Shown: positions 9,993 through 48,968, numbered from the stretch's first letter. The stretch is DNA of 51,618 bases from Candidatus Omnitrophota bacterium (GCA_043823375.1 JBDRAX010000043.1:1-51618), one strand, 5' to 3'. Notes: generated by a model from the letters alone, not told the origin. Made by a program: numbers and translations.

Positions 9993-10004
9993 AAAGGGAC
10001 GGAC

Positions 10005-21942: not shown

Positions 21943-24900
21943 ATGATAAGAAGAAGTAAGAAAATTCATAATTATCGTAAACTCATTACAACCGTACTTG
22001 CGGTTGTTTTTTTGTCTGATACTTGTTGCCATGGTTTGGCAATTCAACCCGCGTCAAATAATCTTCCGGTCAGAAATGATATCCAGCGTATATTGAAAGA
22101 GGAACATTTTGATCCGCGTAAAATCTCGAAAAGTATCAAGAATGTTCTGGATCGAGAAAACACTTCCCGGGGCAGACAGCAGGAGCTCTATAAGTTGATG
22201 GCTTTATACAATATAGATCAGGAATATTTCACGCGTATATGGAATTCCGTTGTTTTGCAGGGGTGCAACAGCGATGTAGCACAGCTTGAAGATCTGGAAA
22301 GATTGTTAGATCAGATACAAAATAATATTTTGCGTAAAATAAGAAAACTGGATCTAAGCGTGGATGAAGCTGTGCTGCGGTCAGGTACCGCGCTTTGTGA
22401 GTGGGCGGCAGAGTGCCGGGATGCCGATAAGAAAAAACTCAGGGTGTTGCATGTCCTGGGAGTGCCATATGATAAGACCGGAAGCGGTATGGTCGCGTGT
22501 AATATTACGTCGGAGCAGGGAAAGTGCGGCGATGAATGGAAACTGTGCTGCGCCGATTATGAACCCAGCGGGAAAGAAAATATTGAAACTATACTCTTTA
22601 CCGCTGGGCAGGGAGATCCGCTTGATGGCGCCGTAAGTTTTCCGGTGCCTACGTACTCAAAAGGTATGCCGTTCACGCATATCAGGTATAGCGAGATGAG
22701 CGAATTACAGCTTGTCGAGTTCTGCGAGAAATATCACGCGTTCCTGAAAAATGTAATAGAAACATATAAGCCGGATATAATAAATACGAACCATCTGTTC
22801 CTGCTGAATCCCATAGTTGAAATTATAGCTCCGTGGGTGCCTGTCGTCTGCACAACGCATGGGACAGAAGAAAAAATGCTCAGAGATCACCCTGAAATGA
22901 AGGGGCTTGTGACAAAAGGGGCACTGAAGGTAGATAAGGTTTTCTGCGTGTCCGACTCTCTAAAAAAGGAAGTTCAGGAAATATACGGCGTGGCTCCCGA
23001 CAGGGTCGCTTTGACGGAGAATGGTTTCGATGGCCTTTTATTTCAGCCGAGAGAATTATCCAGAAAAGATGTTCTGGCCAAATATGGTATTAGTGACGAA
23101 TTTGACAAGATAGTTTTATACGCGGGGAAATACAGCGAATGGAAAGGTATAGAATTTTTGATAGAAGCGGCCGCGCGGAATAACGCGGGGAGCGGGAGGA
23201 AAGTTTTGACTCTTATCGCCGGAGGCGGGTCGCGTGAATTGTACGATAAATACCGCGGTATAGTGTCCGGGCATTCGGCCGGTAACTATATCAAGTTCAT
23301 AGAATTATACGGTAACAGGCAGACGGAAATCAGTGAGCTCATGAACATATCGGATGTTTTTGTCCTCCCAAGCTTTTCGGAACCTTTTGGTATGGTTTTA
23401 CTGGAAGCCATGGCTTGCGGCATGCGCGTTGTGGCCGCTGACAGAGGCGGGCCTCCGATGTTTGTGGGAAAAGATCTGATAGATAAGGGCCTTGCGAAGC
23501 TGGTCAGGCCCGTAAAACTGGATGATCGCGGTAACGCTGATATCCGGGATCTTGATAATTATGTTTCCGCGTTGAGTGAAGGGGTTCTCGATGTTATAAA
23601 TACTCCCGAAAATCCGGGTGAAAGAGATATGATCTCAAAGTCCGTCGGGCAGAGGAGATGGGAAGCAGTATATAGGAAAATAAGGGAGGAATATAAAGAC
23701 GCGATAGAACGCAGGATGAACAGATACCTGATGGTGCCTCTGGATTCTGCTTTTTCGGGGATCGTGGAATTATGCGGCGGTAAAGCTCTGGGGTTAAACA
23801 GAATTAATGATCTCCGGATGGAGGGGTTTAATGTCCCCGGGGGGCAGGTGATCACGACCCTGGCTTTCAGACATTTTATCGGAAGTAACGATGCGCTCAA
23901 AACTAAAGTATTAATGCTGGATAAAATTTCGAAAGATTTATGCGATATAAGTGGACAGGATGAACGCGGTGGACGTGCCAGCGTATTGCGGGAGGAGCTC
24001 GCGCGGCTGAGCGGGGAGATAAGAGACGCGGTTTTTGAAAGTGAACTTCCGGCGGATATAAAGAAAGCGATAAAAGACTATTACAGTGTTTCCGGGAAAA
24101 AACTTTTTGCCGTTAGGAGTTCCGCCGTAGATGAGGATACCGAAGACGACGCCGCCGCGGGCAGATATCATACGGAATTAAATGTGGTTTCTTGTGAAAA
24201 AATGGAGGAGGCGTTAAAGACCGTATGGGCGTCTTTTTTTTCCGATAACGCTGTCGCGATAAGGAATGAAAAGAGAAACGGCGCGATCAAAAAAAATGAA
24301 AACCCGGACAGGTATCTGAATTCCGGCGCCAGGATGGCCGTGATACTGCAGGAGATGGTGAATTCCGAGGCTTCCGGTATTTCATATAATGTTAATGTCG
24401 AAAACGGCCTTGAAGAAATAGTGATAGAAGCGGTTAAGGGTTACGGCGATGATTTCGCGAGCGGAGATATAACTCCCGATTTCTGGAGGTTCAAATATGA
24501 CAAACGAGAAGAGCGGCCGGTTCTCCTGGAAGAGATAATAAGGGGCAAGCCTTATTTAAGGGAGAAGTCGACGCGGGACGAGCCCGCGTTGACCCGCACG
24601 CGGGCGGCGCTTCTTTCTGGCGTATTGCAGAAAATAGCGGATCGGTTTAAAGAAGTACACGGTATACAGTACCTGGATTTTGAGTTTACTTTCGATGAGG
24701 CGGGAAAGCTGTATATCCTGCAGGCGAGGCCTTTGACAGTTGTGCCTTATTCTGTCTTTAATCCGGTTTGTGACGGAGTGAAGAGAGAGGCCGCTGAGGA
24801 TGTCCCTTATGTGGAATTGAACGGTGTTGCCGGATACCCGGGTGTCGCTTCGGGAAGGCTTGTCATTGTGGATAATCCCGGGGACTTTCCCTCGTACGTT

Positions 24901-25386
24901 AATCTTGAGGAAGCCTCACGGCTGATAAAAGAAGGAGACATTTTATGTACCCCCACAGTGAATGTGGGGTGGACGCGTCTTTTTGATAAATTGGCGGGAG
25001 TAATAGCGGAAAGAGGGGGGATGACGTCACATACGGCTACAATCGCGAGACAGAAAGGGGTCCCGGCGCTTGTGGGCGCGAAGAACGCGATAGCACAGCT
25101 CAGGAAAATGAATATGCGGGAAGTTACTCTTGACGTTTATAACCAGATTGTATACGAAGGGAACGTTGAAACAGAAAAAATGCCGCTTAATGATATATTG
25201 TGGCGAGTCCCGGAAGCAGGCAGGGATTACAACAGAAATGAACCATCCCATTTTGTGGATTCAAAAGGGAAAGAGTGGGTAAGAAACCGGTGTATCCTCT
25301 TGGAAATCTTTTGTGTGATATTTCGTACAAGGGGATGCTTAAGATCTTTGAGCTTTTCCCCGGGGTTGACCTTCCGATGTTCATGA
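21943..25386 (+). CDS. giant anchored protein 1a: N-terminal hydrophobic anchor + GT4 glycosyltransferase + PPDK/PEP-synthase-type ATP-grasp (PPDK_N) + phosphohistidine swivel domain
   Basis: 1147 aa. Anchor KLITTVLAVVFLSDTCC. GT4 region from about 22438 to 23700 (LRVLHVLG..., EPFGMVLLEAMACGMRVVAADRGGP). PPDK_N from about 23740 to 24745 (CGGKALGLNRI, FAVRSSAVDEDTEDDAAAG, LDFEFTF...LYILQARPLT). Swivel from about 24822 to 25160 (GGMTSHTATIARQKGVPALVG; His codon 25030-25032). Confidence 0.85.
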   Translation: MIRRSKKIHNYRKLITTVLAVVFLSDTCCHGLAIQPASNNLPVRNDIQRILKEEHFDPRKISKSIKNVLDRENTSRGRQQELYKLMALYNIDQEYFTRIWNSVVLQGCNSDVAQLEDLERLLDQIQNNILRKIRKLDLSVDEAVLRSGTALCEWAAECRDADKKKLRVLHVLGVPYDKTGSGMVACNITSEQGKCGDEWKLCCADYEPSGKENIETILFTAGQGDPLDGAVSFPVPTYSKGMPFTHIRYSEMSELQLVEFCEKYHAFLKNVIETYKPDIINTNHLFLLNPIVEIIAPWVPVVCTTHGTEEKMLRDHPEMKGLVTKGALKVDKVFCVSDSLKKEVQEIYGVAPDRVALTENGFDGLLFQPRELSRKDVLAKYGISDEFDKIVLYAGKYSEWKGIEFLIEAAARNNAGSGRKVLTLIAGGGSRELYDKYRGIVSGHSAGNYIKFIELYGNRQTEISELMNISDVFVLPSFSEPFGMVLLEAMACGMRVVAADRGGPPMFVGKDLIDKGLAKLVRPVKLDDRGNADIRDLDNYVSALSEGVLDVINTPENPGERDMISKSVGQRRWEAVYRKIREEYKDAIERRMNRYLMVPLDSAFSGIVELCGGKALGLNRINDLRMEGFNVPGGQVITTLAFRHFIGSNDALKTKVLMLDKISKDLCDISGQDERGGRASVLREELARLSGEIRDAVFESELPADIKKAIKDYYSVSGKKLFAVRSSAVDEDTEDDAAAGRYHTELNVVSCEKMEEALKTVWASFFSDNAVAIRNEKRNGAIKKNENPDRYLNSGARMAVILQEMVNSEASGISYNVNVENGLEEIVIEAVKGYGDDFASGDITPDFWRFKYDKREERPVLLEEIIRGKPYLREKSTRDEPALTRTRAALLSGVLQKIADRFKEVHGIQYLDFEFTFDEAGKLYILQARPLTVVPYSVFNPVCDGVKREAAEDVPYVELNGVAGYPGVASGRLVIVDNPGDFPSYVNLEEASRLIKEGDILCTPTVNVGWTRLFDKLAGVIAERGGMTSHTATIARQKGVPALVGAKNAIAQLRKMNMREVTLDVYNQIVYEGNVETEKMPLNDILWRVPEAGRDYNRNEPSHFVDSKGKEWVRNRCILLEIFCVIFRTRGCLRSLSFSPGLTFRCS

Positions 25387-28013
25387 AAGGTAATGTACTG
25401 TACGTGGGATATGAGGAACTGTTAACCGTTCCGGATAAAATATACGAACGCGGGACGGATTTTATAGAAACGTTTTTTAAAGACAGAAAAAGGACGATAA
25501 ACAGGTTAAAGGACTACGCCGGCATGGAAAGCCTTAACGCCGGTAATATAGAAGATTTTTTCAAAGTTTATGTAATGGCGATGATGCATATGCATTTAAG
25601 AGCCGGTTTCAGGAGAAGGGTTGCCTTAAGGAAAAGAGGGGAAGTTATCGCGGCTCTTCCAGGGGGTATCAGAAATATTCTCACGTATATGCTGGCAATG
25701 AACGCGCCTTCGGAAGAGAACATGAATAGTGAGGCTGACACCGCGTTCAGCCGGATCCTCGGGGATTTGTCAGGTGAGGAAAAAGCGTTTTTGCTTAATA
25801 AGGATGAAATAGAGGTTGTCAGAATCCTGCCGGAGAGATACCCGGGATTATATGGAGAGCTGGAAAGATTCCTCAAAAATTACAGGATTACCCGTCTCCA
25901 GAGAGATGACTGGGATGCCCCGTTAATGTGGAGGCACGTTATATCCATGATTAAAGACGCTTTGAAAAGCGGTGATAGCTCCCGCGGGGGGGACATGGTA
26001 TACCGCGGAATGGAAGGGTTTAAATTATTTATTGAGAGCCTTAAACCGGAAATATTGAAGTCTGCCCCTGAAATGGATTTCGACGAATTCACTCGGGTTA
26101 TCATGCTTTCGGAAGAACAGAGTATCCAGGTTGAGAATGAGCGGCAGGTCTACCAGAAAGTTTTATTTTCGATGAAAGACAAACTTTTATCTCTGGGCGC
26201 GCTCCTGAGAGAAAGAGGGGTATTAAAAAGCGGCGATACTTTGCTTTCTCATACGATGGAGGAAGTAACAGGAATGGTTCAGATCGCTGATTCCGGGGCT
26301 ATAGCCGCGGCGGATGAAAAAGGGCGGGACGATGATATAGTGTCTTCTGAAGAAATACGTTTTATGGAGGTGCATCCTACAAACAGGTGCAACCTGCGGA
26401 ACACAAAGGCATGCAGCGGTATTTGCACATACGACAGCTTCCATTCCGCGGCTAAGACGCTCCCTTTTAACGCGATAGAGAGGATAGCGCGGTATAATCC
26501 GGAATATATACTGATAGCAGGAGGAGGTGAGCCCGCGTTATATGATTGTGAGGGGAAAGATTTTTCCGATTTTATACTCGAGATGAGGAAGTATCTGCCG
26601 GATACCAGGATGGAGCTGTGTACAAATGGAGTCAAATACATTAAAGAGGAATGCCATCCCGAAATATCTTCCATAAGGGTCAGCCTTCACGGATATTCAG
26701 AACATGAGTGCGCGTGGCACGCTGTAAAAAGCTGGAAAAATTTGTGGCGGTATTTTACGGAAAGTCCCATAGCGGAAATATGGGTAACTTACAGAATAAA
26801 CAAGGACAATTATCTCGAGGCCGCGCATTTAGCTGAAAAGTTATGGATGACCTGGCAGGAAAAAGTAAAGGAAGATCCGGTTTTAGGAAAGAAAGAGTTC
26901 GGGTTTAAAATAATCTGTGAAGCGGACGACAGGGAGGAATTTGTTACAGATCCCTATCACGCTTCTTCGCTTGATTTAAATATGCGGAGGTTGTGGCGTG
27001 AAAAAATAAACGGGATCAAAGAGGCGGGAAGCGGTTTTGGTAAATTCCTTGCCGATATGGAAGATGGGCATCTTGCTTCGAATTTTACTCTGCCGCCTGA
27101 AATAATAACAGGTATTTTTCCACAGCGCGGAACGGCGCCATGTTCGAAATGTTTTCTCGCCGGGGATTACGCCCTTTTCGCGGCAGATGGGGACATCTAT
27201 CCATGCTGCATAATGACGGCACAGTCGAAAAACCGTTACGGCAGTGTATTTTCCGATCCCGCTGACATATTTGAGGCCAGGAAAAAATTGGCCAGGGACG
27301 CATATCCGGCGTGTAAGGCGGGGTGCAGGCTTCACGACACCGTGGTGGGTAAACTTGTGAGAAAAAGGATCGAGGAAAAAAAGAGAGATCGGGCGTTGAG
27401 ATCGGACAATTCCCGGTATGTAATTAACGAAGACAGAAAAGCGTATTTAACTTATGACATGAAAAGCCTGGGACAGTTGAAGGATGAAGGTATGATAACG
27501 CGAGGCAAGTATGTGATCTGGTATAATCCCGAAAAACTGCCGGAGCAATATGCGGATATTCTAAGACAATATGCCGGTTTGCTTGAGCGCGAGCAAGGAG
27601 TAAAGATAACGATCGCGCCATTTTCAGGAGAGAGGTCCAGGTTTAAGGGATCTCTTCTGGCGGTTGATTATAAAAACGCGGATTATACCGGAGAAAGCGT
27701 TATCGATGTGGATACCGAATGCGGTATAGAGAACTATCTTTTAAGGATCACGGGGATTTTAAATATGGCTATGGCAATAGCGACGATTCCATCAGGTACG
27801 GATGACAAAACGCTTATGCTGGAATATGAATATATAGTCATGTTTGTGAAACAGCAGTATCATTCCATTATGGGAGAAGAATATGACCTTTTCCAGAAAG
27901 GGAAGACCGCTTACGAAAATTTGCGTTGTATTGTCCTGCGCCTGCCGGGAATGTATAAGATAGACAGTGTTGAGATATATCAGTATAACAATATCGTAAA
28001 GAAAGCTTTATAG
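25275..28013 (+). CDS. giant protein 1b: PEP-synthase-type helical linker-like region + radical-SAM/SPASM-like core + shared C-terminal module
   Basis: 912 aa from GTG 25275. Alternative starts are ATG 25377 and ATG 25383, the latter forming an ATGA overlap with the upstream stop. rSAM-like elements: TNRCNLRNTKACSGICTY, LIAGGGEPALY, MELCTNG and IRVSLHG, then CSKCFLAG...ADGDIYPCC. The tail from about 27500 is shared with the 952-aa protein. There is no N-terminal anchor. Confidence 0.8.
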   Translation: MGKKPVYPLGNLLCDISYKGMLKIFELFPGVDLPMFMKGNVLYVGYEELLTVPDKIYERGTDFIETFFKDRKRTINRLKDYAGMESLNAGNIEDFFKVYVMAMMHMHLRAGFRRRVALRKRGEVIAALPGGIRNILTYMLAMNAPSEENMNSEADTAFSRILGDLSGEEKAFLLNKDEIEVVRILPERYPGLYGELERFLKNYRITRLQRDDWDAPLMWRHVISMIKDALKSGDSSRGGDMVYRGMEGFKLFIESLKPEILKSAPEMDFDEFTRVIMLSEEQSIQVENERQVYQKVLFSMKDKLLSLGALLRERGVLKSGDTLLSHTMEEVTGMVQIADSGAIAAADEKGRDDDIVSSEEIRFMEVHPTNRCNLRNTKACSGICTYDSFHSAAKTLPFNAIERIARYNPEYILIAGGGEPALYDCEGKDFSDFILEMRKYLPDTRMELCTNGVKYIKEECHPEISSIRVSLHGYSEHECAWHAVKSWKNLWRYFTESPIAEIWVTYRINKDNYLEAAHLAEKLWMTWQEKVKEDPVLGKKEFGFKIICEADDREEFVTDPYHASSLDLNMRRLWREKINGIKEAGSGFGKFLADMEDGHLASNFTLPPEIITGIFPQRGTAPCSKCFLAGDYALFAADGDIYPCCIMTAQSKNRYGSVFSDPADIFEARKKLARDAYPACKAGCRLHDTVVGKLVRKRIEEKKRDRALRSDNSRYVINEDRKAYLTYDMKSLGQLKDEGMITRGKYVIWYNPEKLPEQYADILRQYAGLLEREQGVKITIAPFSGERSRFKGSLLAVDYKNADYTGESVIDVDTECGIENYLLRITGILNMAMAIATIPSGTDDKTLMLEYEYIVMFVKQQYHSIMGEEYDLFQKGKTAYENLRCIVLRLPGMYKIDSVEIYQYNNIVKKAL

Positions 28014-28411
28014 CGGTTAGCTCAGAAAGAGTTTTATCTCCTTTACGGATTCGGTACTTTTCCAGTTATATAGTGATCCTTCAGCAGGTTAGTTTTATTT
28101 CAGAAAGAGATTTGTCCGGGGATTTGAAAGATAGAAAAGACATAGAAAACGTTACGAGGGAAGTAATAATTCATCTTTTTTGAGGCAGGGGATATAACTG
28201 GAAACAACAGCAGTTTCTTAATGATGATCTGTCTCAGATATTGAGAAACGCGTTATCGAACATACGGGAACCGTTTCTTACGTTTCTTTTACTGTTTAGC
28301 GTTTCTGGCGCGGGTATCGCGCGCCGCGCGGGCACTGCGATTGAGAATAAATCTGAATGTTCTACCTTTGTCTTGCCAAGAAGAATTAGCGTATCCATAT
28401 GTTGAAAGGTG

Positions 28412-28440
28412 TTGACTTTTTGGCATGAATATCGTATAAT
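28412..28440 (+). promoter_or_regulatory. consensus-like sigma70 promoter of the arsR-family operon
   Basis: TTGACT (28412-28417), a 17-nt spacer, then TATAAT (28435-28440). Confidence 0.65.
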
Positions 28441-28456
28441 CCGGATAATACGATAT
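28429..28456. promoter_or_regulatory. 9-bp perfect inverted repeat (candidate ArsR-family operator) overlapping the -10 box
   Basis: atatcgtat (28429-28437), a 10-nt spacer, then atacgatat (28448-28456). It sits between the promoter and the RBS AAGGAGGG. Confidence 0.5.
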
Positions 28457-28466
28457 AAGGAGGGTT

Positions 28467-28742
28467 ATGCCGATAGATTATGCCAGGGACGCTGAGGTTT
28501 TGAAAGCTGTGGCTCATCCTGTACGCTTGAGGATAGTTCAGGGGCTTATGAGGAACGAGTGTAATGTCACAAAGATAGTCCGGGCGCTTGGGCTGCCGCA
28601 ATCGACGGTTTCCCAGCATCTCGGGGTTCTGAGGGCCGCGGGGATACTTGTTCCAAGGAAGAGCGGCGTGAAGACGTGTTATCAAGTCGTGGACGGGCGG
28701 GTTATGAAGATCATTGAGGTATTTGAAAATAAAAGGGGATGA
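28467..28742 (+). CDS. ArsR/SmtB-family transcriptional regulator
   Basis: 91 aa. LKAVAHPVRLRIVQGL...CNVTKIVRALGLPQSTVSQHLGVLRAAGIL is the canonical ArsR wHTH. Confidence 0.9.
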   Translation: MPIDYARDAEVLKAVAHPVRLRIVQGLMRNECNVTKIVRALGLPQSTVSQHLGVLRAAGILVPRKSGVKTCYQVVDGRVMKIIEVFENKRG

Positions 28743-28748
28743 TAGAAA

Positions 28749-31196: not shown

Positions 31197-31208
31197 CGTA
31201 AAAACCAT

Positions 31209-31255: not shown

Positions 31256-31312
31256 GGATTTGCTACTGCAAAAAACCCTTCTGTTAAGTGTCAAAAAGTC
31301 CAGATTTAATGT

Positions 31313-39835: not shown

Positions 39836-39888
39836 GGCACCATTACGAAATATAAATATGGGTAACACTCGGAGGGAAAGGGATCAAA

Positions 39889-42747: not shown

Positions 42748-42889
42748 TCTTTGTTTATGTGTTTAAAACCTTCAGGGATCAGAATATGGGCTACTGTATT
42801 TGATTATAACGCTTTTATGTAATATATTTAGTAGTGAGTAGTGGATAGTATTTTTTTTGCCGAAGAATAATTAAAAGGAGGAAGGGATA

Positions 42890-43345
42890 ATGGGAATAAA
42901 AAAACTTTATCATGAGCATACCAATGTTTTCGGATTTGAGATCGACGGCAGGCTTACCGTGGCTGAGATAGAAAAATTCCTTCCGGAACTTGAAGAAGCT
43001 GTCGAGATGTCGCGTAAAAAATTAAGGCTGCTTGTCGATGTTACTAAAATGGCGGGCGCGAATCTGAAATCAGAATGGGAGATCTTTGAATTCCTTAAAA
43101 AACACATAAATGACATCGAATTTATAGCGATTGTCGGCGCCCATTCATGGACAAAAGTCATGAGCGAGATCCTGTCAGAGTCAGTTTTTGTTATGGCTGA
43201 GACGCTGTATTTCAAGCCGGAGCAGATAGAACAGGCCTGGGCATGGCTTACCGGCGCGAGCCACCCCCGCCGTGTGCCTGTGCAAAAGTATATCCACAGC
43301 GATAAAGGGCTCTTTACTAAATACGGCTCTCCGGATTATATATAG
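42890..43345 (+). CDS. STAS/SEC14-like (SpoIIAA-like, DUF3478) domain protein
   Basis: 151 aa. The layout FGFEIDGRLTVAEIEKF.PELEEA......KLRLLVDVT.M.G......WEIF.F...H...IE.IAIVG is typical of the family. Strong RBS AAAGGAGGAAGGG. Confidence 0.75.
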   Translation: MGIKKLYHEHTNVFGFEIDGRLTVAEIEKFLPELEEAVEMSRKKLRLLVDVTKMAGANLKSEWEIFEFLKKHINDIEFIAIVGAHSWTKVMSEILSESVFVMAETLYFKPEQIEQAWAWLTGASHPRRVPVQKYIHSDKGLFTKYGSPDYI

Positions 43346-43617
43346 GACAATTCAGAGGATAGGTTTTACTGTTCTCTTAAGCGCGCGGAAAGTAATAGAT
43401 GTCTAGAAAAAAGCTTTTCTATTTTTAGAAAAAGCTTCGTGTAATGTGATGTTTTGACATGAAAATGCATGTTTTAGGATGGTTTGAGAAATATTAATAG
43501 TGGAGGGCAGGTTGTTTTGTTCTTGTATTTGTATATGCCGCATATTACAATTATTAAGCTTAACGCGAGCATCTCGATCGTAAATATAAAAAGGATTAAA
43601 AAAAAAGGATAATATAA

Positions 43618-44682
43618 ATGGAAAAAAAATTTGAGCTTACAAGCCCGGCGGTGTTTATCGGTAAACAGGGTAATGGTGTGATAAGTTTCGGCTCAGGACA
43701 GCCTGATCTTCCTCCGCCTAAAGAGGCGATAGAAGGGATAGACATAAGGAAAGACTTGAGGTACGGCCTTATCCAGGGGGAACTAGCGCTCAGGGAAGCG
43801 CTGTCAAGGGAATATCCTGATTCCACGGCGGAAAATTTTGTTATTACGAACGGGGCGTCCGAAGCGCTTGATCTTATCTTCCGTTCTTTAGGCAAGGGGA
43901 AGGTGCTTCTTCCCAGGCCTTATTACTATTCATACCCGCCGATAATAAAGCTCGCTGGTATGGAGCCGGTATACACTGATCTTATCGACGGCAGGATAGA
44001 CCTCGATGATTTCAAGAAAAAGGTTAAAGATTGCAGGGCTGTTCTTATCAATTCGCCTTCGAACCCCACGGGGCGCGTCGAATCGATAGAAACACTGAAA
44101 GAAATAGAAAAGATAACCGCTAAACTCGGCATTTATGTAATTTCGGATGAAGTTTATAAGGACCTCATATATGAACGCGAAAATTATCATCTCCATGGCG
44201 AACATGTTATTACCGTGAATTCATTTTCCAAAACCTACGCCATGTGCGGGGTCCGCGTGGGATATTTGTGGAGCAGTGACCAGAAAGTCGCGGACGATGT
44301 CATAGAGCTTAAGACACATACTTCCATGAATACCAACCTTGTCGGGCAGGATATGGCTTTAAGGGCTATGGCGGCGCCGCGGCAGTATGTAATAGATCAG
44401 CAGAACATCTGGCGCGGCAGGAGAGACTTTATTTATAAGGGTTTTCTTGACCTCGGGTTCGAACTCTGGAAACCCGAAGGCGCGTTTTATATCCTTCCGA
44501 AATGTAAAAATTCCAGACAGATGCTTACGACACTTTATCTTGAATACAAAGTGATCGCGTATCTCGGTGAATGGTTCGGAGCCCCGGATCACCTGAGGCT
44601 CAGTTACGCGCTGGATGAAAAGGAAATTGCCAGAGGGCTTGAGCGTATAAAAGACGCGATGAAAAAAGTCAGATGTTTTTAA
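43618..44682 (+). CDS. PLP-dependent aminotransferase, class I/II (AspC-like)
   Basis: 354 aa. Contains FGSGQPD, ITNGASEALD, LINSPSNPTG, ISDEVY and NSFSKTYAMCGVRVGY (PLP lysine). Confidence 0.9.
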   Translation: MEKKFELTSPAVFIGKQGNGVISFGSGQPDLPPPKEAIEGIDIRKDLRYGLIQGELALREALSREYPDSTAENFVITNGASEALDLIFRSLGKGKVLLPRPYYYSYPPIIKLAGMEPVYTDLIDGRIDLDDFKKKVKDCRAVLINSPSNPTGRVESIETLKEIEKITAKLGIYVISDEVYKDLIYERENYHLHGEHVITVNSFSKTYAMCGVRVGYLWSSDQKVADDVIELKTHTSMNTNLVGQDMALRAMAAPRQYVIDQQNIWRGRRDFIYKGFLDLGFELWKPEGAFYILPKCKNSRQMLTTLYLEYKVIAYLGEWFGAPDHLRLSYALDEKEIARGLERIKDAMKKVRCF

Positions 44683-45014
44683 ACATCCGATCATGACGTG
44701 CTCTCGAAAAAAACGGGTTTATCCACACGATCTCCGGCCATGCCGACAATATTATGACGCGTAATCCGGCAGGGGCGGACCCCTTGAGTGTCCGCCTCAA
44801 GCGCGCGGTACGCCCTGCCTTACACGAACAAGCGTTACAACCCACTTCCAGGACCGTGACACATCTACGCTTATTTCTGAAACCCGTCCCGACACATTAA
44901 TTTTAAAAAAGTTAAAAATACAAAATCTAACAAGCTTTGTCTGTTGTTAACTTGACGAAATATATATAATATTCGCATACTTTAAATTTTAAAGAGGTAG
45001 TTTGTGGGTAAATT

Positions 45015-48000
45015 ATGAGTTGTGGGAAAAATAAAAATTTTAATAAGAACAACATTATTAATGTAATTCTATTGGCAGGCTTGTTAATTTGTGGAGAAAA
45101 ATGTGTATTTTCTTCAGATGTCCCTTCAGGCGCTTTGCACGTTCAATCTATTTTTAAGCCGCTGACTGATGTCTCCGGCGCTGAAAATGAAACACAGCTT
45201 GTTCTGGAAACAGCAATGATCCTGTTTTCCATAGACAAATATATCAAACAGGGATGTGAGGTTATTCCTTACAGGGATATAAACTGCGCGATGGACATCT
45301 GGTATCACAATCTTCCGGATACGGAGCATAACAGGACAGTGTTCAAAAGTAAGTCAAGACTGATATCTGTTACCGGAGGCTCTCTTGTTACGGAGAAAGA
45401 CAATTCTGTGAACATATCAGTTGCGGATGAAAACGGGAGGGAACGGAGGTTCAGAATATTTTCACGTCTCAAGGAAATAAAGAACGCTCCGGTATGCCCG
45501 GGCGATCTATCGATCGAAAGGATAAGCGACCTTGAGGATGCCGCGTGTTTTAAGGAAGGCTGTATGTATGATTATAAGGGCCGTTACGACGCGGAAGTGG
45601 AAAAGTTCCTGATGGCCCAGGCACGGGAAGAAGCGGCGCGAAAAGCCGTTGGCGCGGATTCAGAGACCGAAGCTTACCATCTTCTAAAGGACAGCACAAG
45701 GTTTGTGATAACGCGTAACGGCAGAAAGGTTATTTACTCCGGGCTATTAAAATACCACAGAAAAAAAGTAATGGAAATAGCGGCGGTCCTGAACGCGGAA
45801 GTGCCGTTTTACGCCGGGGTAAAGGTGAGCCCCTGTGCGGGATATCTCTTTATCTCGAGATATTATATCCCGCATCCGGGCGCGATGATACCTATTAAGG
45901 AAAAGCCGGGCTCTGAGAAGGCTTGCGGTGAAGAAAAACGGGAGGAATTTTTAGATATATTATTTTATCTTGATAATGACAGGACAAGGTTTGTGAGAAA
46001 TGTCATAAGAAAAATAAAGAGAGCCGCGTCTGATGAAAAGGACCCCTGTCACAAGAGAGCCGTTGAATTGCTTGAGATCGGAGAGAGGCGTGTTATCGAT
46101 AAATTGGATGAACTATACGGCGCTTCATATAACGGGGAGGATCTTAAAAACAGGGTATTTATGTCTCTGGGGATAAGCGGAGAATGGGATGGTGTTCTCC
46201 GTATCCATAAGATACGGAGAGAATTGAGAAATCCGGAGTTTCTCAGTCAGCTTTTCCCTGAATATATAAAAAGCGCGTGTGGGGAAGACATTGACGCGCG
46301 CGGTTTGAATGGCGCGCAGATAGAAGCGGTCGTGAATAAGATCATGAGAGAAGTATTTCTCTTTGTGGTTTCTCCGAGATCATGCCTGAGGGGGCACAGG
46401 GCGGATTTTGAAGCGGAAGAGGCGGCTAAGGAAAGATCCGAACAGCTTATTTCCTGCCATGTGCATCCCTTTCAGACTGCCTTTGAAAAGCTGAATACTC
46501 TTATGATGGAGCGCTTTTTGGTTTATGACAGGAACAAAATAAAAGAGTTCTTTTCCGAGCGGTTACCCGCTGAGCAGCTAGAACAGATCGTCGACGACCA
46601 CCTCGCGTCCCTTGAAGAAGATATGGGAAAAAATGACGAAAGGATAAGGGAGCTTGAGGAACTTATAAACGAGATTAAAAAAAATGGTTTTAAACAAGCG
46701 CGGGACAGTTATCTCAGGATCTTTTCATTTTTTGATTCTGTCGGATTCTCCCGGATACTGAGGCCGTGTTTATCGAATATTGATGAGAGCATAAGAGGCG
46801 AAAATGAAAAGGCCGCTTTTATTATATATCTTCTGTCGGAACGGGCGAATACATTGAGGAGAATAAAGAGAGAGCTCGGGGATGTATATCGCGCTATTAC
46901 GGATACGCGGGATTTTATATCAAGGGGCAATGTTCCTTCCGGTGACATAATAGAACATCTGACGTTTTCCGGTTTTTTTCATGATTCGGGTACTTTCGCG
47001 AGGAGCGAAAAAGACGCCGAGCATGAGTCAGAATACCGTATAATTTCAGAGTCAGGCCAAGCCCTGGATGAGATCCTTTCTATTATCGAAAATCCTCTGG
47101 GTACATCGTTTATTATAAGCTATAGAGAAGATTCCGGAACCGTTATTAATCAGGATACAGAGTGGGGCCTCAGGCTTTCCTGTTTTAACAGATATCAAAT
47201 TGGGCGGGGCATCGAAGGCAGATACCGTATAGTAGGTAACAGGGATCTTTCCAGTGGTGAAAGCCTCGACACTTTCAATTATGTTTTCTGGGAACAGAAG
47301 TTTGATTCTGTTATGCCATTCAGGAATTTTAACAGATCCACGTTTTTCCCTTCTGTTGTCGTAAAGGAAAAAGGATCCGGCCGATATTTTCAGATGCTTC
47401 CCCGTGATCCCGCGTCATGGAAAGATAAACGATACGCCGGGCAAATGATCTTTCTCATGGAGAACGGTTTCCCCGGGCTTGTCTTTAAAAACGATACTGT
47501 TGACGGTAAAGAAGTTCTTCTTATCGAGATTTTTCCGCGCGTCGATATACTCAGCAATGAAAAGAAAAAATATATCAGACAGGCGGCTTTCCGCGCCCGT
47601 AAGGGGATGCTGGAAATCGTGGATATTATGAAAGCGGCGGAATCTTTTTACAGAACAGGGCGGATCTTGTACAGGGCGGCTAAAAACGGTCTTAAGATCG
47701 ATAAGGCTTTCAGGGAAGAACTCGAACTGGAGGAATCAATACAAAAGCTGTTGGATATTGAAGGCCTGATAAGAGAAGGGATAGACCTTGAGCTTGAAGA
47801 CGTAATAAAGAAAAAGTTGCTTGCCGGAGATACGGTTTTGTACAGATACAACACGATTTTTAAAGAGATGGCCCGCCAGATAGCCCCCCCCGGAAAAAGG
47901 CTCGCTTTTGTCGGAAAAGTTTTAACCGCGGATGATAAAAATGACCTGACTCCGGAAAAGCTTCACGCGTTGAGGCAGGAAGTAGAATCAACCGGGAATG

Positions 48001-48968
48001 GGGACTCTGAGTTCAGCCGGGTTGAACAGGAAGAAATATTTGAGGCGCCCTTCTCCGGGGAAATAGCGGCCGTAAAACTTAATAACCCGCATAAAAGCGT
48101 TTTCTCGATCGTTCAGAAACTCGGTTACATTACGCGTTTTCTTTCCGATGCGGAAAAAAACGTGAAACATAATGGGTCTGCCGCTGTTATGCCGGGGGTC
48201 GATATAGTTATCGACAATACTTTTATATCCGGAAGAGATTTTGAAGATAGCGCTAAAACGGTCGCTTATCTTATAATGCTGTGTGAAAAAAAAAGACATC
48301 CGGGCGTTAACTATGTTTTTAAACAGCTGTTTAAAAAGGACGCCGATACCATGGGACAAGAACTCCTGTTAGATATCAGTAATGCCGCGGAAGCGTCAAA
48401 GATCGCCTCTCGGGTAAAAGAGATAATACGAGATGATGGCCATTTATTCCTCGATAGAGCGGGCGTGGACGGCCTTATCGGAAGGATACGGTCTTCTTTG
48501 AGCGGCGCGGATTTTGAAATACCGGTCCTTAACGGGGAGTGGCTCAGGTGGCGCAAGCGCGCGGGTATCGGGCTGAAGGAGAAAGAGTACCCGGTCGCTA
48601 TTGACGGATTTACGTCAGAGCCCGGCGGCGCCCTTTTTTCCCGTTCTGTCGAGGCGGCTCTCGCGACAGCTTTATGCAAGTCCGTTCTCCTGAGATGTCA
48701 GCGTAGAATGATTACGGGTACGGCTTTTGAAAAAGATTTTTCGGACGTAAAGGAAAGAACCGTGGAGGAACTCAATGAGATATATTCTCTTGTATACGGG
48801 ACGGCTTTTTCGATAACGGAAAATACGGTCGAGTATATGATATATCCGGGCGCGGATAAAAGGCTCGACCTGGCTATTGGTCTCGCGCTCCCTCCGGCGG
48901 CAAGGTTTAACCCGCGTGAGACCCGGGACCTCCACGAAATAACCAGAGACGCTTCTATGTCAGCGTAA
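45015..48968 (+). CDS. giant anchored protein 4 (unassigned body, weak match to the shared C-terminal module)
   Basis: 1317 aa. The N-terminus is MSCGKNKNFNKNNIINVILLAGLLICG. I recognise no catalytic motif. The C-terminal end ...IGLALPPAARFNPRETRDLHEITRDASMSA resembles the termini of the other giant proteins. Confidence 0.85.
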   Translation: MSCGKNKNFNKNNIINVILLAGLLICGEKCVFSSDVPSGALHVQSIFKPLTDVSGAENETQLVLETAMILFSIDKYIKQGCEVIPYRDINCAMDIWYHNLPDTEHNRTVFKSKSRLISVTGGSLVTEKDNSVNISVADENGRERRFRIFSRLKEIKNAPVCPGDLSIERISDLEDAACFKEGCMYDYKGRYDAEVEKFLMAQAREEAARKAVGADSETEAYHLLKDSTRFVITRNGRKVIYSGLLKYHRKKVMEIAAVLNAEVPFYAGVKVSPCAGYLFISRYYIPHPGAMIPIKEKPGSEKACGEEKREEFLDILFYLDNDRTRFVRNVIRKIKRAASDEKDPCHKRAVELLEIGERRVIDKLDELYGASYNGEDLKNRVFMSLGISGEWDGVLRIHKIRRELRNPEFLSQLFPEYIKSACGEDIDARGLNGAQIEAVVNKIMREVFLFVVSPRSCLRGHRADFEAEEAAKERSEQLISCHVHPFQTAFEKLNTLMMERFLVYDRNKIKEFFSERLPAEQLEQIVDDHLASLEEDMGKNDERIRELEELINEIKKNGFKQARDSYLRIFSFFDSVGFSRILRPCLSNIDESIRGENEKAAFIIYLLSERANTLRRIKRELGDVYRAITDTRDFISRGNVPSGDIIEHLTFSGFFHDSGTFARSEKDAEHESEYRIISESGQALDEILSIIENPLGTSFIISYREDSGTVINQDTEWGLRLSCFNRYQIGRGIEGRYRIVGNRDLSSGESLDTFNYVFWEQKFDSVMPFRNFNRSTFFPSVVVKEKGSGRYFQMLPRDPASWKDKRYAGQMIFLMENGFPGLVFKNDTVDGKEVLLIEIFPRVDILSNEKKKYIRQAAFRARKGMLEIVDIMKAAESFYRTGRILYRAAKNGLKIDKAFREELELEESIQKLLDIEGLIREGIDLELEDVIKKKLLAGDTVLYRYNTIFKEMARQIAPPGKRLAFVGKVLTADDKNDLTPEKLHALRQEVESTGNGDSEFSRVEQEEIFEAPFSGEIAAVKLNNPHKSVFSIVQKLGYITRFLSDAEKNVKHNGSAAVMPGVDIVIDNTFISGRDFEDSAKTVAYLIMLCEKKRHPGVNYVFKQLFKKDADTMGQELLLDISNAAEASKIASRVKEIIRDDGHLFLDRAGVDGLIGRIRSSLSGADFEIPVLNGEWLRWRKRAGIGLKEKEYPVAIDGFTSEPGGALFSRSVEAALATALCKSVLLRCQRRMITGTAFEKDFSDVKERTVEELNEIYSLVYGTAFSITENTVEYMIYPGADKRLDLAIGLALPPAARFNPRETRDLHEITRDASMSA

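What the first reader, a model, noticed from the sequence alone, without database searches (positions are those of the whole stretch)
21943..48968. Cluster of giant, N-terminally anchored multidomain proteins that share an unrecognised C-terminal module
Four very long + strand units (21943-28013 as 1147+912 aa, 31387-39243 as 2618 aa, 39889-42747 as 952 aa, 45015-48968 as 1317 aa) each begin with a basic stretch followed by a single hydrophobic segment: KLITTVLAVVFLSDTCC, LLFKQAVSLITASVFLCLSC, KKTIRAIFCLFFTGTSLF and NNIINVILLAGLLICG. Each ends in a related tail. Between the 912- and 952-aa proteins I can see four collinear blocks: YN-x10-I-x3-Y-x2-LL, APF(S/A)(G/S)E, LNMA(M/L)A, and F(V/L)K(Q/K)QY-x4-GEE. 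A similar h-x-h-P...(A/L) terminus follows these blocks. The 2618-aa tail (VSKGLLNYARL...LRLTKIDYETIKDW...ISRSL) and the 1317-aa tail (IGLALPPAARFNPRETRDLHEI...SMSA) match more weakly. I cannot assign the tail to any named domain. The catalytic parts spread over the set are a GT4 glycosyltransferase, two ATP-grasp/phosphohistidine pairs and a radical-SAM/SPASM-like core. Embedded STAS, aminotransferase and sulfur-relay genes accompany them. This looks like a dedicated envelope-associated modification or biosynthesis machine rather than adhesins. The common tail could act as a docking, assembly or sorting element.
Basis: partly seen in the sequence, partly recalled or inferred. Interest (0 to 1): 0.85.

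Follow-up and report, generated by a model that had tools for sequence, protein, structure and literature searches.

The report
Conserved tail domain on Omnitrophota enzymes
Two of the four big proteins (and, more weakly, the other two) end in a previously undescribed tail domain that hundreds of modular enzymes, apparently from the uncultured phylum Omnitrophota, also carry at their very end, probably as a common address or docking tag.

Summary
The ORFs, N-terminal hydrophobic segments and quoted motif blocks are all present. The shared tail is confirmed for two proteins only. These are gene A (21943-28013, one gene split by a frameshift near 25282) and gene C (40003-42747).

A profile of their last ~170 aa finds 251 protein clusters among 1.84 billion. 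In all 150 listed hits the match sits at the extreme C-terminus of proteins 87-5727 aa long, and 133 of those 150 end in Ala. The domain has no Pfam, NCBIfam or PDB relative. AlphaFold2 folds it confidently (pLDDT 94.8) and Foldseek finds no significant neighbour.

Gene D shares only the last ~70 aa (terminal window ranks 1/637). Gene B shares only a ~40-aa terminal strand-helix element (rank 23/1287). ORF 90-989 is not supported.

Gene A also carries the family's conserved leader (…CYGLATLPASQNP…). Gene B carries a ~500-aa N-module typical of 2-6 kaa Omnitrophota proteins. Cargo enzymes vary widely between members and flanking genes are not conserved. This therefore looks like a modular family with a common terminal tag rather than one biosynthetic machine.

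The docking or sorting role is inferred, not shown.

The parts
21943..28013 (+). Gene A. One ~2040-aa gene split by a frameshift at ~25281-25284. Order: leader, GT4, PPDK_N, PEP-utilizers, rSAM/SPASM-like region, tail.
   Evidence: ORFs 21943-25386 and 25275-28013. tblastn of the fusion homologue P0006 runs from frame 1 to frame 3 at 25281-25284. Pfam domains.
21964..22098 (+). Gene A leader (aa 8-52): basic stretch, hydrophobic segment (aa 14-32), then ...SDTCCHGLAIQPASNNLPVRND. This is the family-wide leader ...CYGLATLPASQNPxxKR.
   Evidence: hhalign probability 96.8%, E 3e-10 to the leader+head alignment, aa 8-52 only. hmmsearch E 2.3e-12. Hydrophobicity.
22735..23532 (+). Gene A GT4 glycosyltransferase cargo domain (aa 265-530).
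   Evidence: Pfam Glyco_transf_4 1.5e-12, Glycos_transf_1 3e-25.
23767..25140 (+). Gene A PPDK_N ATP-grasp (aa 609-934) and PEP-utilizers swivel domain (aa 995-1066).
   Evidence: Pfam 6.2e-51 and 8.1e-19. NCBIfam PEP synthase/PigC/RPH-type partial hits, all below cut-off.
26352..27344 (+). Gene A radical-SAM/SPASM-like region (912-aa ORF aa ~360-690). Has CX7CX3C, GGGEP and a C-terminal Cys cluster.
   Evidence: NCBIfam HxsC E 2.6e-5, far below cut-off. Invariant Cys and GGGEP in alignment A9. Homologue P0004 is named 'radical SAM protein' by NCBI. No Pfam or PDB hit.
27501..28010 (+). Gene A tail domain (aa 743-912 of the 912-aa ORF). Ends ...KKAL, three residues short of the family's ...ALxAA end.
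   Evidence: Family HMM E 1.5e-47. AF2 pLDDT 94.8, pTM 0.90. No significant Foldseek hit.
31387..39243 (+). Gene B, 2618 aa. Order: hydrophobic N-terminal segment (aa 20-38), N-module, unknown region, PEP-utilizers (aa 1550-1653), PPDK_N (aa 1713-2024), unknown C-terminal region.
   Evidence: ORF, Pfam, hydrophobicity.
31522..33030 (+). Gene B N-module (aa 46-548). Conserved at the N-terminus of 2.2-6.3 kaa proteins; four of the 23 hits are labelled Candidatus Omnitrophica MAGs by a source. Invariant residues in the order H...E...R...GGxH.
   Evidence: BLASTP 1e-14 to 1e-97 to P0007-P0029, always at their N-termini. Alignment A8. AF2 pLDDT 88.2. Weak ChaN/Tiki Pfam hits in 3 of 14 members.
39127..39240 (+). 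Gene B terminal element (last 38 aa): ...FKDILRGIQSLRLTKIDYETIKDWAEAQAAISRSL. Weakly similar to the last strand and helix of the tail domain.
   Evidence: hhalign P 3.7e-4, in register with both C-termini, probability 36%. Terminal window ranks 23 of 1287. Not detected by HMMER.
40003..42747 (+). Gene C, 914 aa from M39 of ORF 39889-42747. Has a hydrophobic N-terminal segment, an N-domain shared with P0002, an unknown middle and a tail.
   Evidence: Gene call P0001. BLASTP to P0002 43% over aa 80-174, E 1.7e-13. The similar P0155 N-terminus is by eye only. No Pfam or NCBIfam hit.
42172..42744 (+). Gene C tail domain (ORF aa 762-952). A divergent family member with an insertion; ends ...LRALISA.
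   Evidence: Family HMM E 2.5e-20, HMM positions 5-173 aligned to the exact C-terminus. Smith-Waterman z 10.4 against the gene A tail.
45015..48968 (+). Gene D, 1317 aa. Has an N-terminal hydrophobic segment (aa 14-32). No homologue or family was found.
   Evidence: ORF. No Pfam or NCBIfam hit. No hit in the word-based protein search.
48744..48965 (+). Gene D C-terminal ~70 aa: ...VEELNEIYSLVYGTAFS...LDLAIGLALPPAARFNPRETRDLHEITRDASMSA. Weakly matches the C-terminal 40% of the tail domain.
   Evidence: Family HMM positions 100-169 aligned to aa 1244-1313, iE 0.62. Leave-one-out terminal profile score 8.3 at the exact C-terminus. Terminal window ranks 1 of 637.
28749..31196 (+). Embedded stand-alone gene: Pyr_redox_2/Pyr_redox_dim, Rhodanese, TusA and DsrE fusion. 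Not part of the family.
   Evidence: Pfam. No counterpart next to family genes in other loci.
42890..44682 (+). Embedded STAS (SpoIIAA-like, 42890-43345) and class I/II aminotransferase (43618-44682). Not conserved neighbours of the family.
   Evidence: Pfam. Other loci.

Best explanation
**What is shown**
- The region holds four members of a superfamily of modular proteins that appears to be specific to Omnitrophota.
- In these proteins, variable enzyme 'cargo' lies between a conserved N-terminal Sec-type leader/anchor and a conserved C-terminal module.
- Genes A and C end in a complete ~170-190-aa alpha/beta tail domain. Its N-terminal half is thioredoxin-like without a CxxC motif. It is followed by a helical part, a final strand with an invariant Pro, and a terminal helix that in most family members runs to an ...ALxAA carboxy-terminus.
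- Gene D keeps only about the last 70 aa of this domain. Gene B keeps only the ~40-aa strand-helix end. Gene B instead has the giant-protein N-module.

**What is inferred**
- The tail is non-catalytic. Together with the leader it acts as a common address or docking tag.
- The tag brings many different enzymes to one envelope-associated site or partner. The logic resembles dockerins on cellulosomal enzymes or the C-terminal domain of type IX secretion cargo.
- The partner is unknown. The N-module giants encoded next door are candidates.
- The window cluster is a local accumulation of paralogous family members, not a single pathway.
For: **The tail family is real**
- 251 clusters match at E <= 1e-3 and 164 at E <= 1e-10 among 1.84e9 representatives.
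- Of 150 matches, 144 end within 3 aa of the protein's C-terminus. 133 of 150 end in Ala.
- Host proteins range from 87 to 5727 aa.

**The tail is a compact domain with no known relative**
- AF2 gives pLDDT 94.8 and pTM 0.90.
- There is no Pfam or NCBIfam hit and no PDB sequence hit.
- No Foldseek hit reaches E <= 1e-3. The only resemblance is ~70 columns of thioredoxin-like fold.

**It does not look catalytic**
- Only Y24, N88 and P149 are invariant in 36 sequences.
- The family's frequent Cys and GEGH motif are missing from both window copies.

**Cargo is variable**
- 52 different Pfam families were found in 40 members, and no family occurs in more than 6 of them.

**Leader and tail are coupled**
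- The conserved leader ...CYGLATLPASQNPxxKR plus a ~230-aa head was found in 51 domain matches among the 150 tail-bearing proteins searched. It is present in every tail gene with an intact N-terminus in the GTDB and metagenome loci.
- Gene A has this leader.

**Phylum**
- 6 of 7 GTDB loci are Candidatus Omnitrophota MAGs.

**Synteny with N-module giants**
- A giant gene with the N-module lies directly adjacent on the same strand in L008, L014 and L022; in the window genes B and C are adjacent.

**A terminal element is shared beyond the full domain**
- Terminal window ranks 1/637 for gene D, 1/596 for P0002, 1/565 for the LpxC-domain protein of L001, 1/202 for L022a and 23/1287 for gene B.
- In a leave-one-out test the best hit fell at the exact C-terminus in 7 of 21 proteins, against ~0.06 expected by chance.
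Against: - No receptor, protease or transporter is linked to the family. Flanking genes are unrelated between loci.
- Roughly a quarter to a third of full-length-like members show no N-terminal hydrophobic segment. These may have wrong gene starts or may be truly leaderless. If leaderless, the tail cannot be a tag that depends on export.
- Much of the cargo needs ATP, SAM, NAD or Fe-S reduction: PPDK_N, kinases, methyltransferases, rSAM. This fits badly with a periplasmic or surface location.
- The AF2 model has the terminal helix packed at high confidence. The C-terminus may be structural rather than a free recognition peptide. Gene A lacks the terminal xAA altogether.
- For gene B the tail relation rests on weak statistics (P ~0.02 and 4e-4).
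- No prediction of the tail in complex with another protein could be run.
Confidence: 0.5

Rival explanations
1. The tail is a C-terminal secretion or translocation signal domain. The leader takes the protein across the inner membrane. The tail is then recognised by a dedicated exporter. The cytoplasmic-type enzymes act outside the cell or inside a host or prey cell, as an 'effectorome' of a host-dependent bacterium.
For: - The leader has signal-peptide-like n, h and c regions, with small residues in ...YGLA at -3/-1 and a conserved sequence just after it.
- Positive charges are concentrated before the hydrophobic stretch (read by eye).
- The cargo needs ATP or SAM, which is available only in a cytoplasm.
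- Omnitrophota are described as host-dependent or predatory. Their giant multi-enzyme proteins are mostly predicted to have a signal peptide and/or TM helices, and are flanked by T2SS/T4P genes (papers 10.1101/2023.11.21.568195 and 10.64898/2026.06.07.730766).
- The strictly terminal position and the small-residue carboxy-terminus fit recognition of a free C-terminus.
Against: - No secretion genes lie next to the family loci examined.
- The tail is not a beta-sandwich like the T9SS CTD, and no RTX or T1SS features appear in Pfam.
- Some members appear to lack a leader.
- No signal-peptide predictor was available, so cleavage is a guess.
Confidence: 0.2
2. The proteins are membrane-tethered cytoplasmic enzymes. 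The tail is an intracellular oligomerisation, stabilising or autoregulatory domain, or a degradation-control tag ending in AA like ssrA-type degrons. It is not an address tag.
For: - The cargo cofactor needs (ATP, SAM, Fe-S) fit the cytoplasm.
- The tail is a compact globular domain whose terminal helix is part of the fold.
- Some members have no leader.
- The ...ALxAA end resembles the ...ALAA end of the ssrA tag (resemblance from memory, not tested).
Against: - The charge distribution around the leader, read by eye, suggests an N-in/C-out orientation.
- Leader plus head are strongly coupled to the tail across loci.
- A degron would not need a conserved 170-aa domain.
- The window's gene A lacks the AA end.
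Confidence: 0.22
3. One reading: the cluster 21943-48968, including the STAS, aminotransferase and sulfur-relay genes, is one dedicated envelope modification or biosynthesis pathway, and the tail assembles its enzymes.
For: - All genes from 13106 to 48968 are co-directional.
- The enzymes present could in principle act on one glycoconjugate: GT4, two dikinase-like modules, an rSAM-like region, an aminotransferase and an FkbM methyltransferase.
Against: - None of the accessory genes recurs beside family genes in the 26 other loci.
- Cargo differs in nearly every member.
- Intergenic gaps of 140-740 bp argue against tight operon coupling.
Confidence: 0.07
4. The tail is itself an enzyme or a redox/cofactor module with a thioredoxin-like fold, and supplies a common chemical step to all cargo.
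For: - The N-terminal ~70 aa resemble thioredoxin-fold proteins.
- Many members have a conserved Cys and a GEGH motif.
Against: - Foldseek E-values are all > 1e-3 and TM-scores <= 0.35.
- There is no CxxC motif.
- The Cys and His are absent from both window copies and are not invariant.
Confidence: 0.05

Closest known systems
Multi-enzyme long proteins of Omnitrophota ('Archaeovorins', West-Roberts et al. 2023, bioRxiv 10.1101/2023.11.21.568195; 'class 1 multi-enzyme metabolic clusters', Nielsen & Lui 2026, bioRxiv 10.64898/2026.06.07.730766)
   Same: - Same phylum, by homologues and loci.
- An N-terminal signal peptide or TM.
- Many unrelated enzyme domains in one polypeptide. PPDK_N, GT1/GT4, radical SAM, methyltransferases and NUDIX are listed for those giants too.
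- Gene B shares its N-module with 2-6 kaa proteins of this kind.
   Different: - The window proteins are 0.9-2.6 kaa, not the >= 10 kaa of the 2026 catalogue (the 2023 paper treats proteins of >30,000 aa).
- In the sections and term searches I read, the papers do not describe a conserved leader, head, N-module or C-terminal tail domain.
- SecA-like and C39 domains, reported for the giants, were not found here.
Dockerin-bearing cellulosomal enzymes
   Same: The logic is the same: an N-terminal signal peptide, variable catalytic modules and a common C-terminal non-catalytic module present on many paralogues.
   Different: - There is no dockerin Pfam hit.
- The tail is a 170-aa alpha/beta domain, not a ~70-aa duplicated Ca-binding loop-helix.
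- No cohesin-like partner is known.
- The cargo is not made of CAZymes.
Type IX secretion cargo C-terminal domain (CTD)
   Same: An N-terminal Sec signal, variable cargo and a conserved domain at the extreme C-terminus of many otherwise unrelated proteins in one phylum.
   Different: - The CTD is a ~80-100-aa Ig-like beta-sandwich (PMC11285876 abstract). The tail has 5 strands and 6 helices.
- No T9SS genes were seen nearby.
- The phylum differs.
LapA-type T1SS adhesins (N-terminal retention module plus C-terminal secretion signal)
   Same: Large proteins with conserved functional elements at both termini and a variable middle. The secretion signal depends on the extreme C-terminus. (From general knowledge.)
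   Different: - No RTX repeats or T1SS genes were detected.
- T1SS substrates lack a Sec-type hydrophobic leader.
- The tail is a folded domain, not a short unstructured signal.
PEP synthase / rifampin phosphotransferase / PigC-type dikinase modules (cargo of genes A and B)
   Same: PPDK_N ATP-grasp plus a PEP-utilizers phosphohistidine swivel domain.
   Different: - All NCBIfam scores are far below the equivalog cut-offs, for example 208 against 598.
- The PEP/pyruvate-binding domain is absent.
- The domain order is permuted in gene B (swivel before ATP-grasp).
- The modules are fused to GT4 and rSAM-like domains.
Tiki/TraB/ChaN/erythromycin-esterase superfamily (for the gene B N-module only)
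   Same: - Invariant residues occur in the order H...E...R...GGxH. That this matches the superfamily's motif order is recalled from memory.
- Pfam ChaN (PF04187, 'Tiki superfamily') hits 3 of 14 members.
- EreC and Bcr135 appear among the weak Foldseek hits.
   Different: - All hits are non-significant: best Pfam E 0.007, Foldseek E 0.6-1.8.
- A ~300-aa all-helical insertion splits the core.

Membership tests
New tail-domain family (defined here by alignment A2/A4 and the 150-sequence HMM) | Significant match to the ~174-position profile, ending at the protein's C-terminus | tested here: met
   Gene A E 1.5e-47 and gene C E 2.5e-20, both aligned to the last residue. Gene D gives only iE 0.62 over HMM positions 100-169. 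Gene B and ORF 90-989 are not detected.
New tail-domain family | Family leader (hydrophobic segment followed by ...CYGLATLPASQNPxxKR) and ~230-aa head domain at the N-terminus | tested here: inconclusive
   Gene A has the leader (hhalign 96.8%, aa 8-52) but not the head. Gene C has a different leader and N-domain, shared with P0002 by BLASTP and with P0155 by eye. Genes B and D give no match.
Omnitrophota giant multi-enzyme proteins (>= 10 kaa catalogue of Nielsen & Lui 2026; >30 kaa giants of West-Roberts 2023) | Length >= 10,000 aa | tested here: not met
   Lengths are ~2040, 2618, 914 and 1317 aa.
Omnitrophota giant multi-enzyme proteins | Several unrelated enzyme Pfams in one polypeptide, plus an N-terminal signal peptide or TM helix | tested here: met
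   Gene A has GT4, PPDK_N, PEP-utilizers and an rSAM-like region. Gene B has PEP-utilizers and PPDK_N. N-terminal hydrophobic segments are present. Genes C and D have no recognisable enzyme domain.
Omnitrophota giant multi-enzyme proteins | Encoded by Omnitrophota | tested here: inconclusive
   The window's source is unknown. Homologues and related loci are almost all Candidatus Omnitrophota/Omnitrophica MAGs.
T9SS C-terminal domain | Ig-like 3+4 beta-sandwich of ~80-100 aa | tested here: not met
   The AF2 model is alpha/beta with 5 strands and 6 helices over 170 aa. No CTD Pfam or NCBIfam hit.
Dockerin | Match to dockerin type I (PF00404), a duplicated Ca-binding segment | tested here: not met
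   No Pfam hit in any of 36 tails at E <= 1.
Sortase/exosortase-type C-terminal sorting signals (LPXTG, PEP-CTERM and similar) | A motif followed by a C-terminal TM helix and a basic tail | tested here: not met
   No hydrophobic segment at the C-terminus of any of the four proteins. The proteins end in an amphipathic helix.
ssrA-like C-terminal degron | A free ...LAA-COOH recognised by ClpX or SspB | not testable with these tools
   The family end is ...ALxAA: 80 of 150 have Ala and 47 of 150 have Ser at the penultimate position, and 133 of 150 end in Ala. This is a resemblance only. Gene A ends ...KKAL.
Radical SAM / SPASM (gene A cargo) | CX3CX2C cluster motif and a match to PF04055 or a SPASM model above threshold | tested here: not met
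   No Pfam hit. The motif is CX7CX3C. NCBIfam HxsC scores 23 bits against a cut-off of 268. The GGGEP motif and a Cys-rich C-terminal part are present, so the region is 'rSAM-like' only.
PEP synthase / PPDK (cargo of genes A and B) | ATP-grasp, swivel His domain and PEP/pyruvate-binding TIM barrel, scoring above the equivalog cut-off | tested here: not met
   Only the first two domains are present. Scores are 208 and 260 bits against a cut-off of 598.
Tiki/TraB/ChaN/EreA superfamily (gene B N-module) | Significant profile or fold match, with conserved motifs in the order H/E/R/GxxH | tested here: inconclusive
   The motif order is present. PF04187 hits 3 of 14 members, best E 0.007. Foldseek to EreC gives E 1.6 and TM 0.17.
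Anti-phage defence systems | Match to a PADLOC model | tested here: not met
   No hit for genes A-D or the STAS protein. Only the Pfam GT4-conflict family overlaps the GT4 domain, at 1.2e-8.

The most novel reading that the evidence does not exclude
The leader (with or without the head) and the tail together define a previously unrecognised protein-sorting route in Omnitrophota. A folded ~170-aa C-terminal domain with a small-residue carboxy-terminus is read by an unknown envelope machine. That machine docks or exports a polymorphic repertoire of cytoplasmic-type enzymes (kinases, dikinases, methyltransferases, rSAM, GTs), possibly onto the giant N-module proteins or into host or prey cells. 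This would give a sequence handle for listing the whole 'effectorome' of these host-dependent bacteria.
Probability: 0.2. Interest if true: 0.9.

Novelty: new variant of a known kind. Interest (0 to 1): 0.72.

Why it matters
Omnitrophota are uncultured, host-dependent or predatory bacteria known for huge multi-enzyme proteins. Where these proteins sit and how they assemble is not understood. Published analyses note the paradox of ATP- and SAM-dependent enzymes behind signal peptides.

A conserved terminal tag found on hundreds of such proteins is a concrete handle on this problem.
- It lets one list the members in any genome.
- It allows a search for the co-distributed receptor or exporter.
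- It gives specific experiments: tail deletion, pull-downs, terminal proteomics.

The tail is also a confidently folding domain with no Pfam, NCBIfam or PDB relative. The same holds for the head and for the ~500-aa N-module. All three are candidates for new family definitions.

Tried and rejected
**Searches that found nothing or too little**
- Pairwise BLASTP and Smith-Waterman among all tails found only the A/C pair.
- jackhmmer from the gene C tail on local sequences stalled at three sequences.
- A two-sequence HMM found nothing else in the window.
- A MAFFT alignment of 23 C-termini was too noisy to use.
- hhalign of 16 giants' tails (120 or 180 aa) against the family gave no signal. There is therefore no evidence that the giants carry the full domain.
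- Iterative HMM extension recruited only P0011 and gene D. Gene D's improved E-value after inclusion is circular and is not used as evidence.

**Ideas tested and dropped**
- Leader type against tail similarity: only a weak association (0.40 within types, 0.34 between), so I dropped it as an argument.
- Repeated linker motifs that might mark polyprotein cleavage sites: present in several giants but absent from the window proteins.
- Defence-system reading: no PADLOC hits.

**Annotation attempts that failed**
- PDB sequence searches for the N-module, the rSAM-like region and the tail were all empty or insignificant.
- The window's source record could not be retrieved.
- The first related-loci run failed because the alignment was too diverse. 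I repeated it with 7 close sequences, so the genome and metagenome loci are biased towards the consensus-like subfamily.

**Method note**
- One homologous-protein query was a concatenation of gene D, the non-PPDK parts of gene B and the gene A N-terminus. I re-mapped its hits to the individual proteins by BLASTP.

Full report
**1. What is in the window**

The four + strand units exist as described. The 1147-aa and 912-aa ORFs are two halves of one gene. P0006, a homologue that fuses PPDK_N, PEP-utilizers and the rSAM-like region, aligns by tblastn in frame 1 up to nt 25284. It continues in frame 3 from nt 25281. I call the units:
- gene A: 21943-28013
- gene B: 31387-39243
- gene C: 40003-42747 (its gene call starts at M39 of the ORF)
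- gene D: 45015-48968

Each begins with basic residues and one hydrophobic segment.

Pfam confirms the following:
- GT4, PPDK_N and PEP-utilizers in gene A
- PEP-utilizers followed by PPDK_N in gene B
- the SpoIIAA-like STAS protein
- the class I/II aminotransferase
- a Pyr_redox_2/Rhodanese/TusA/DsrE fusion

Genes C and D, the 912-aa half of gene A, and most of gene B have no Pfam or NCBIfam family.

The 'rSAM/SPASM-like core' is only weakly supported. NCBIfam HxsC gives E = 2.6e-5, far below its cut-off. There is a non-canonical CX7CX3C motif, a GGGEP motif and a Cys-rich end. There is no Pfam or PDB hit.

**2. Is the tail shared?**

For genes A and C, yes.
- The last 250 aa give Smith-Waterman z = 10.4 against shuffles. 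Every other pair, including controls, gives z < 1.5, except one unrelated pair.

I searched a profile of the two tails plus the tail of P0004 (an Omnitrophica MAG homologue of gene A) against 1.84 billion representative proteins.
- It found 251 proteins at E <= 1e-3 and 164 at E <= 1e-10.
- All 150 listed matches lie at the extreme C-terminus. 102 end on the last residue and 144 within 3 residues.
- Host proteins are 87-5727 aa long. There is one tail per protein, with a single exception that has two matched stretches.
- The consensus ends ...IVLxLPKSxRxxxxxIEEYNRLAKEALxAA. 133 of 150 end in Ala.

Against a local HMM of these 150 tails:
- Gene A scores E = 1.5e-47 and gene C scores E = 2.5e-20.
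- Gene D is matched only weakly (iE 0.62), but in register: HMM positions 100-169 align to aa 1244-1313 of 1317.
- Gene B and ORF 90-989 are not detected.

I then ran a cleaner test. It uses a profile of the last 48 aa built from tail-family members only. It scores all 46-aa windows of each protein and ranks the terminal window.

| Protein | Rank of terminal window |
|---|---|
| Gene D | 1 of 637 |
| Gene B | 23 of 1287 |
| ORF 90-989 | 29 of 128 |
| Control o13106 | P = 0.09 |
| Control o28749 | P = 0.62 |
| Control o43618 | P = 0.43 |

Further points on the terminal element:
- Seven C-termini of gene-B-like and P0002-like proteins align without gaps when right-justified...h(R/K)Ix(P/K)ID(F/Y/W)xE(I/V)(K/R)(D/E)(W/F/Y)xxA.... 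As a profile they match the family's terminal 48 aa in register (hhalign P = 3.7e-4, probability 36%).
- A leave-one-out profile of terminal 40-mers places its best hit on the exact C-terminus in 7 of 21 proteins, against ~0.06 expected by chance.
- hhalign of longer giant tails against the family gives nothing.

In summary, the full domain is in genes A and C. Gene D has its last ~70 aa. Gene B has only a ~40-aa strand-helix end, weakly supported. ORF 90-989 is unsupported.

**3. What the tail is**
- It matches no Pfam family in any of 36 members, no NCBIfam model and no PDB sequence.
- With a 36-sequence alignment, AlphaFold2 gives pLDDT 94.8 and pTM 0.90. The fold order is strand, helix, three strands, four helices, strand, terminal helix.
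- Foldseek finds no match at E <= 1e-3 in the PDB or BFVD. TM-scores are <= 0.35. Only the first ~70 residues resemble thioredoxin-fold proteins such as NDUFA2 and mL43.
- Only Y24, N88 and P149 are invariant.
- The Cys and GEGH motif common in the family are missing from both window copies.
- I therefore read it as a structural or binding domain, not an enzyme. This is an inference.

**4. The family around it**

N-terminal parts:
- Many members start with a strikingly conserved leader: basic residues, ~15 hydrophobic residues, then ...(C)CYGLATLPASQNPxxKR. A ~230-aa head domain follows.
- Gene A has exactly this leader (hhalign 96.8%, aa 8-52) but not the head.
- Gene C has another leader and N-domain, shared with P0002 (BLASTP) and, by eye, with P0155.
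- Of 92 full-length-like members, 55 pass a strict hydrophobicity cut-off and several more carry the motif. About a quarter to a third show none.

Cargo:
- It is extremely varied. 52 Pfam families were found in 40 members and none occurs in more than 6 of them. They include SAM methyltransferases, radical SAM, DHQ synthase, adenylate kinase, PPDK_N, epimerases, GT1, PGM, ROK and PRTases.

Distribution and neighbours:
- GTDB genomes holding the consensus-like tail are Candidatus Omnitrophota MAGs in 6 of 7 cases.
- In 26 further loci, every tail gene with an intact 5' end also has the leader plus head.
- Flanking genes are unrelated housekeeping genes.
- The one recurrent neighbour is a giant gene with the gene-B-type N-module. 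It lies directly adjacent on the same strand in L008, L014 and L022. L022 has three family genes in a row. In the window, genes B and C are adjacent. I could not calibrate how surprising this is, because the copy number per genome is unknown.

**5. Gene B's N-module**
- Residues ~50-540 match the N-termini of 23 proteins of 2.2-6.3 kaa; four are labelled Omnitrophica MAGs and most carry no source name. BLASTP E-values run from 1e-14 to 1e-97. Those proteins carry isocitrate lyase, malate synthase, kinases, glycogen phosphorylase, M48, NUDIX, Fic and others.
- The invariant residues are H45, Q51, E73, G74, R412, G440, G441 and H443.
- AF2 (pLDDT 88.2) shows a small alpha/beta core split by a ~300-aa helical insertion.
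- There is no significant Foldseek or PDB hit.
- Pfam ChaN ('Tiki superfamily') hits 3 of 14 members at best E = 0.007. EreC and Bcr135 appear among the weak fold hits.
- Membership in the Tiki/TraB/ChaN/erythromycin-esterase superfamily is a lead, not a result.

**6. How it most likely works**

Shown:
- A conserved, folded, strictly C-terminal domain.
- A conserved leader.
- Interchangeable cargo.
- Restriction to one phylum.
- Several paralogues with different leader and tail subtypes in one 27-kb stretch.

Inferred:
- The termini form a common address or docking tag that takes different enzymes to one envelope-associated place or partner, as dockerins or T9SS CTDs do.

The leader looks like a Sec signal peptide with a possible SPase I site after YGLA. 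This is by eye; no predictor was available. That reading creates the same paradox that Nielsen & Lui (2026) note for the largest Omnitrophota proteins. ATP-, SAM- and Fe-S-dependent enzymes would lie outside the cytoplasm. Three resolutions are possible:
- delivery into host or prey cells (secretion-signal rival, ~0.2)
- an uncleaved anchor with the enzymes on the cytoplasmic face and a regulatory or oligomerising tail (~0.22)
- docking onto the neighbouring giants

None can be decided with the tools at hand. A single dedicated biosynthetic pathway is unlikely (~0.07) and a catalytic tail is unlikely (~0.05).

**7. Comparison with what is known, and novelty**

The proteins belong to the recognised phenomenon of multi-enzyme long proteins in Omnitrophota (West-Roberts 2023; Nielsen & Lui 2026). 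They are 4-100 times shorter than the catalogued giants.

In the sections and term searches I read, those papers do not mention a conserved leader, head, N-module or tail. Two further literature searches found nothing.

The tail fails the defining features of T9SS CTDs, dockerins and sortase- or exosortase-type signals (see the membership table). It 'works like' a terminal targeting or docking module but is not a member of any known family. I therefore class it as a new variant of a known kind.

**8. Verdict**

| Claim | Confidence |
|---|---|
| The tail family is real, in no family or structure library searched, and present in genes A and C | ~0.95 |
| Genes D and B share its terminal element | ~0.75 (D), ~0.5 (B) |
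| The tail is an address or docking tag | ~0.5 |

Interest is 0.72.

Noticed in passing
window 25270-25295: A single-nucleotide frameshift splits gene A into the 1147-aa and 912-aa ORFs. The homologue P0006 reads through the junction (...GKEWVR|KKPVYPL...). It could be an assembly error, a pseudogene lesion or programmed.
   Followed up: partly
window 31522-33030 (gene B aa 46-548): A ~500-aa N-module conserved at the N-terminus of 2.2-6.3 kaa multi-enzyme proteins, several from Omnitrophica MAGs. Invariant residues occur in the order H...E...R...GGxH. It has a small alpha/beta core split by a ~300-aa helical insertion. It may be a divergent Tiki/TraB/ChaN/erythromycin-esterase-type domain. 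It is not in Pfam.
   Followed up: partly
homologues P0008, P0017, P0018, P0025, P0027, P0029 (not in the window): Short motifs repeat between domains of several giants: TDASGAAPE x5-7, GARLA x3-6, RSEVR x7-9, RSELR x7. They look like linker or cleavage-site repeats of polyproteins. No such repeats occur in the window proteins.
   Followed up: no
L022 1-10519; L008; L014: Tail-family genes and N-module giant genes lie directly adjacent on the same strand in three unrelated metagenome or MAG loci, as genes B and C do in the window. L022 has three such genes in a row, each with a related C-terminal end (...IDFGEI(K/R)(E/D)(W/F)...(K/E)AL in the two giants; ...IEEYNTMARKALVAA in the tail gene).
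   Followed up: partly
L001 2790-6308: An 1173-aa LpxC-domain protein lies just downstream of the gene A homologue P0004. It ends ...LIRLLPIAPIDAENMKKIFERARNIMTAA, close to the end of P0002. Its terminal window ranks 1 of 565 with the tail-family profile. The terminal element therefore occurs on proteins that lack the full tail domain.
   Followed up: partly
window 26352-27344: The rSAM-like region has an unusual invariant CX7CX3C motif instead of CX3CX2C, together with GGGEP and a Cys-rich SPASM-like end. It escapes Pfam and has no PDB sequence relative.
   Followed up: partly
window 90-989: A 299-aa ORF with no family hit ends ...HEAARMFATAA, like family C-termini. An in-frame stop lies just upstream, so it does not run off the contig. 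The statistical tests do not support membership.
   Followed up: yes
window 1440-3084: An AbiEi antitoxin / AbiEii nucleotidyltransferase toxin pair (type IV TA / abortive infection).
   Followed up: no
window 7168-11429: Two paralogous amino-acid permeases (53% identical) flank a PLP-dependent decarboxylase. The arrangement resembles a gad-type acid-resistance module. The local GC (0.51-0.54) is higher than in the giant-gene region (0.43-0.48).
   Followed up: no
window 13106-18577: An 1823-aa protein with a typical signal peptide, three PPC pre-peptidase C-terminal domains and an Ig-like domain. It ends in a Lys/Glu-rich coil. It is not a member of the tail family.
   Followed up: no
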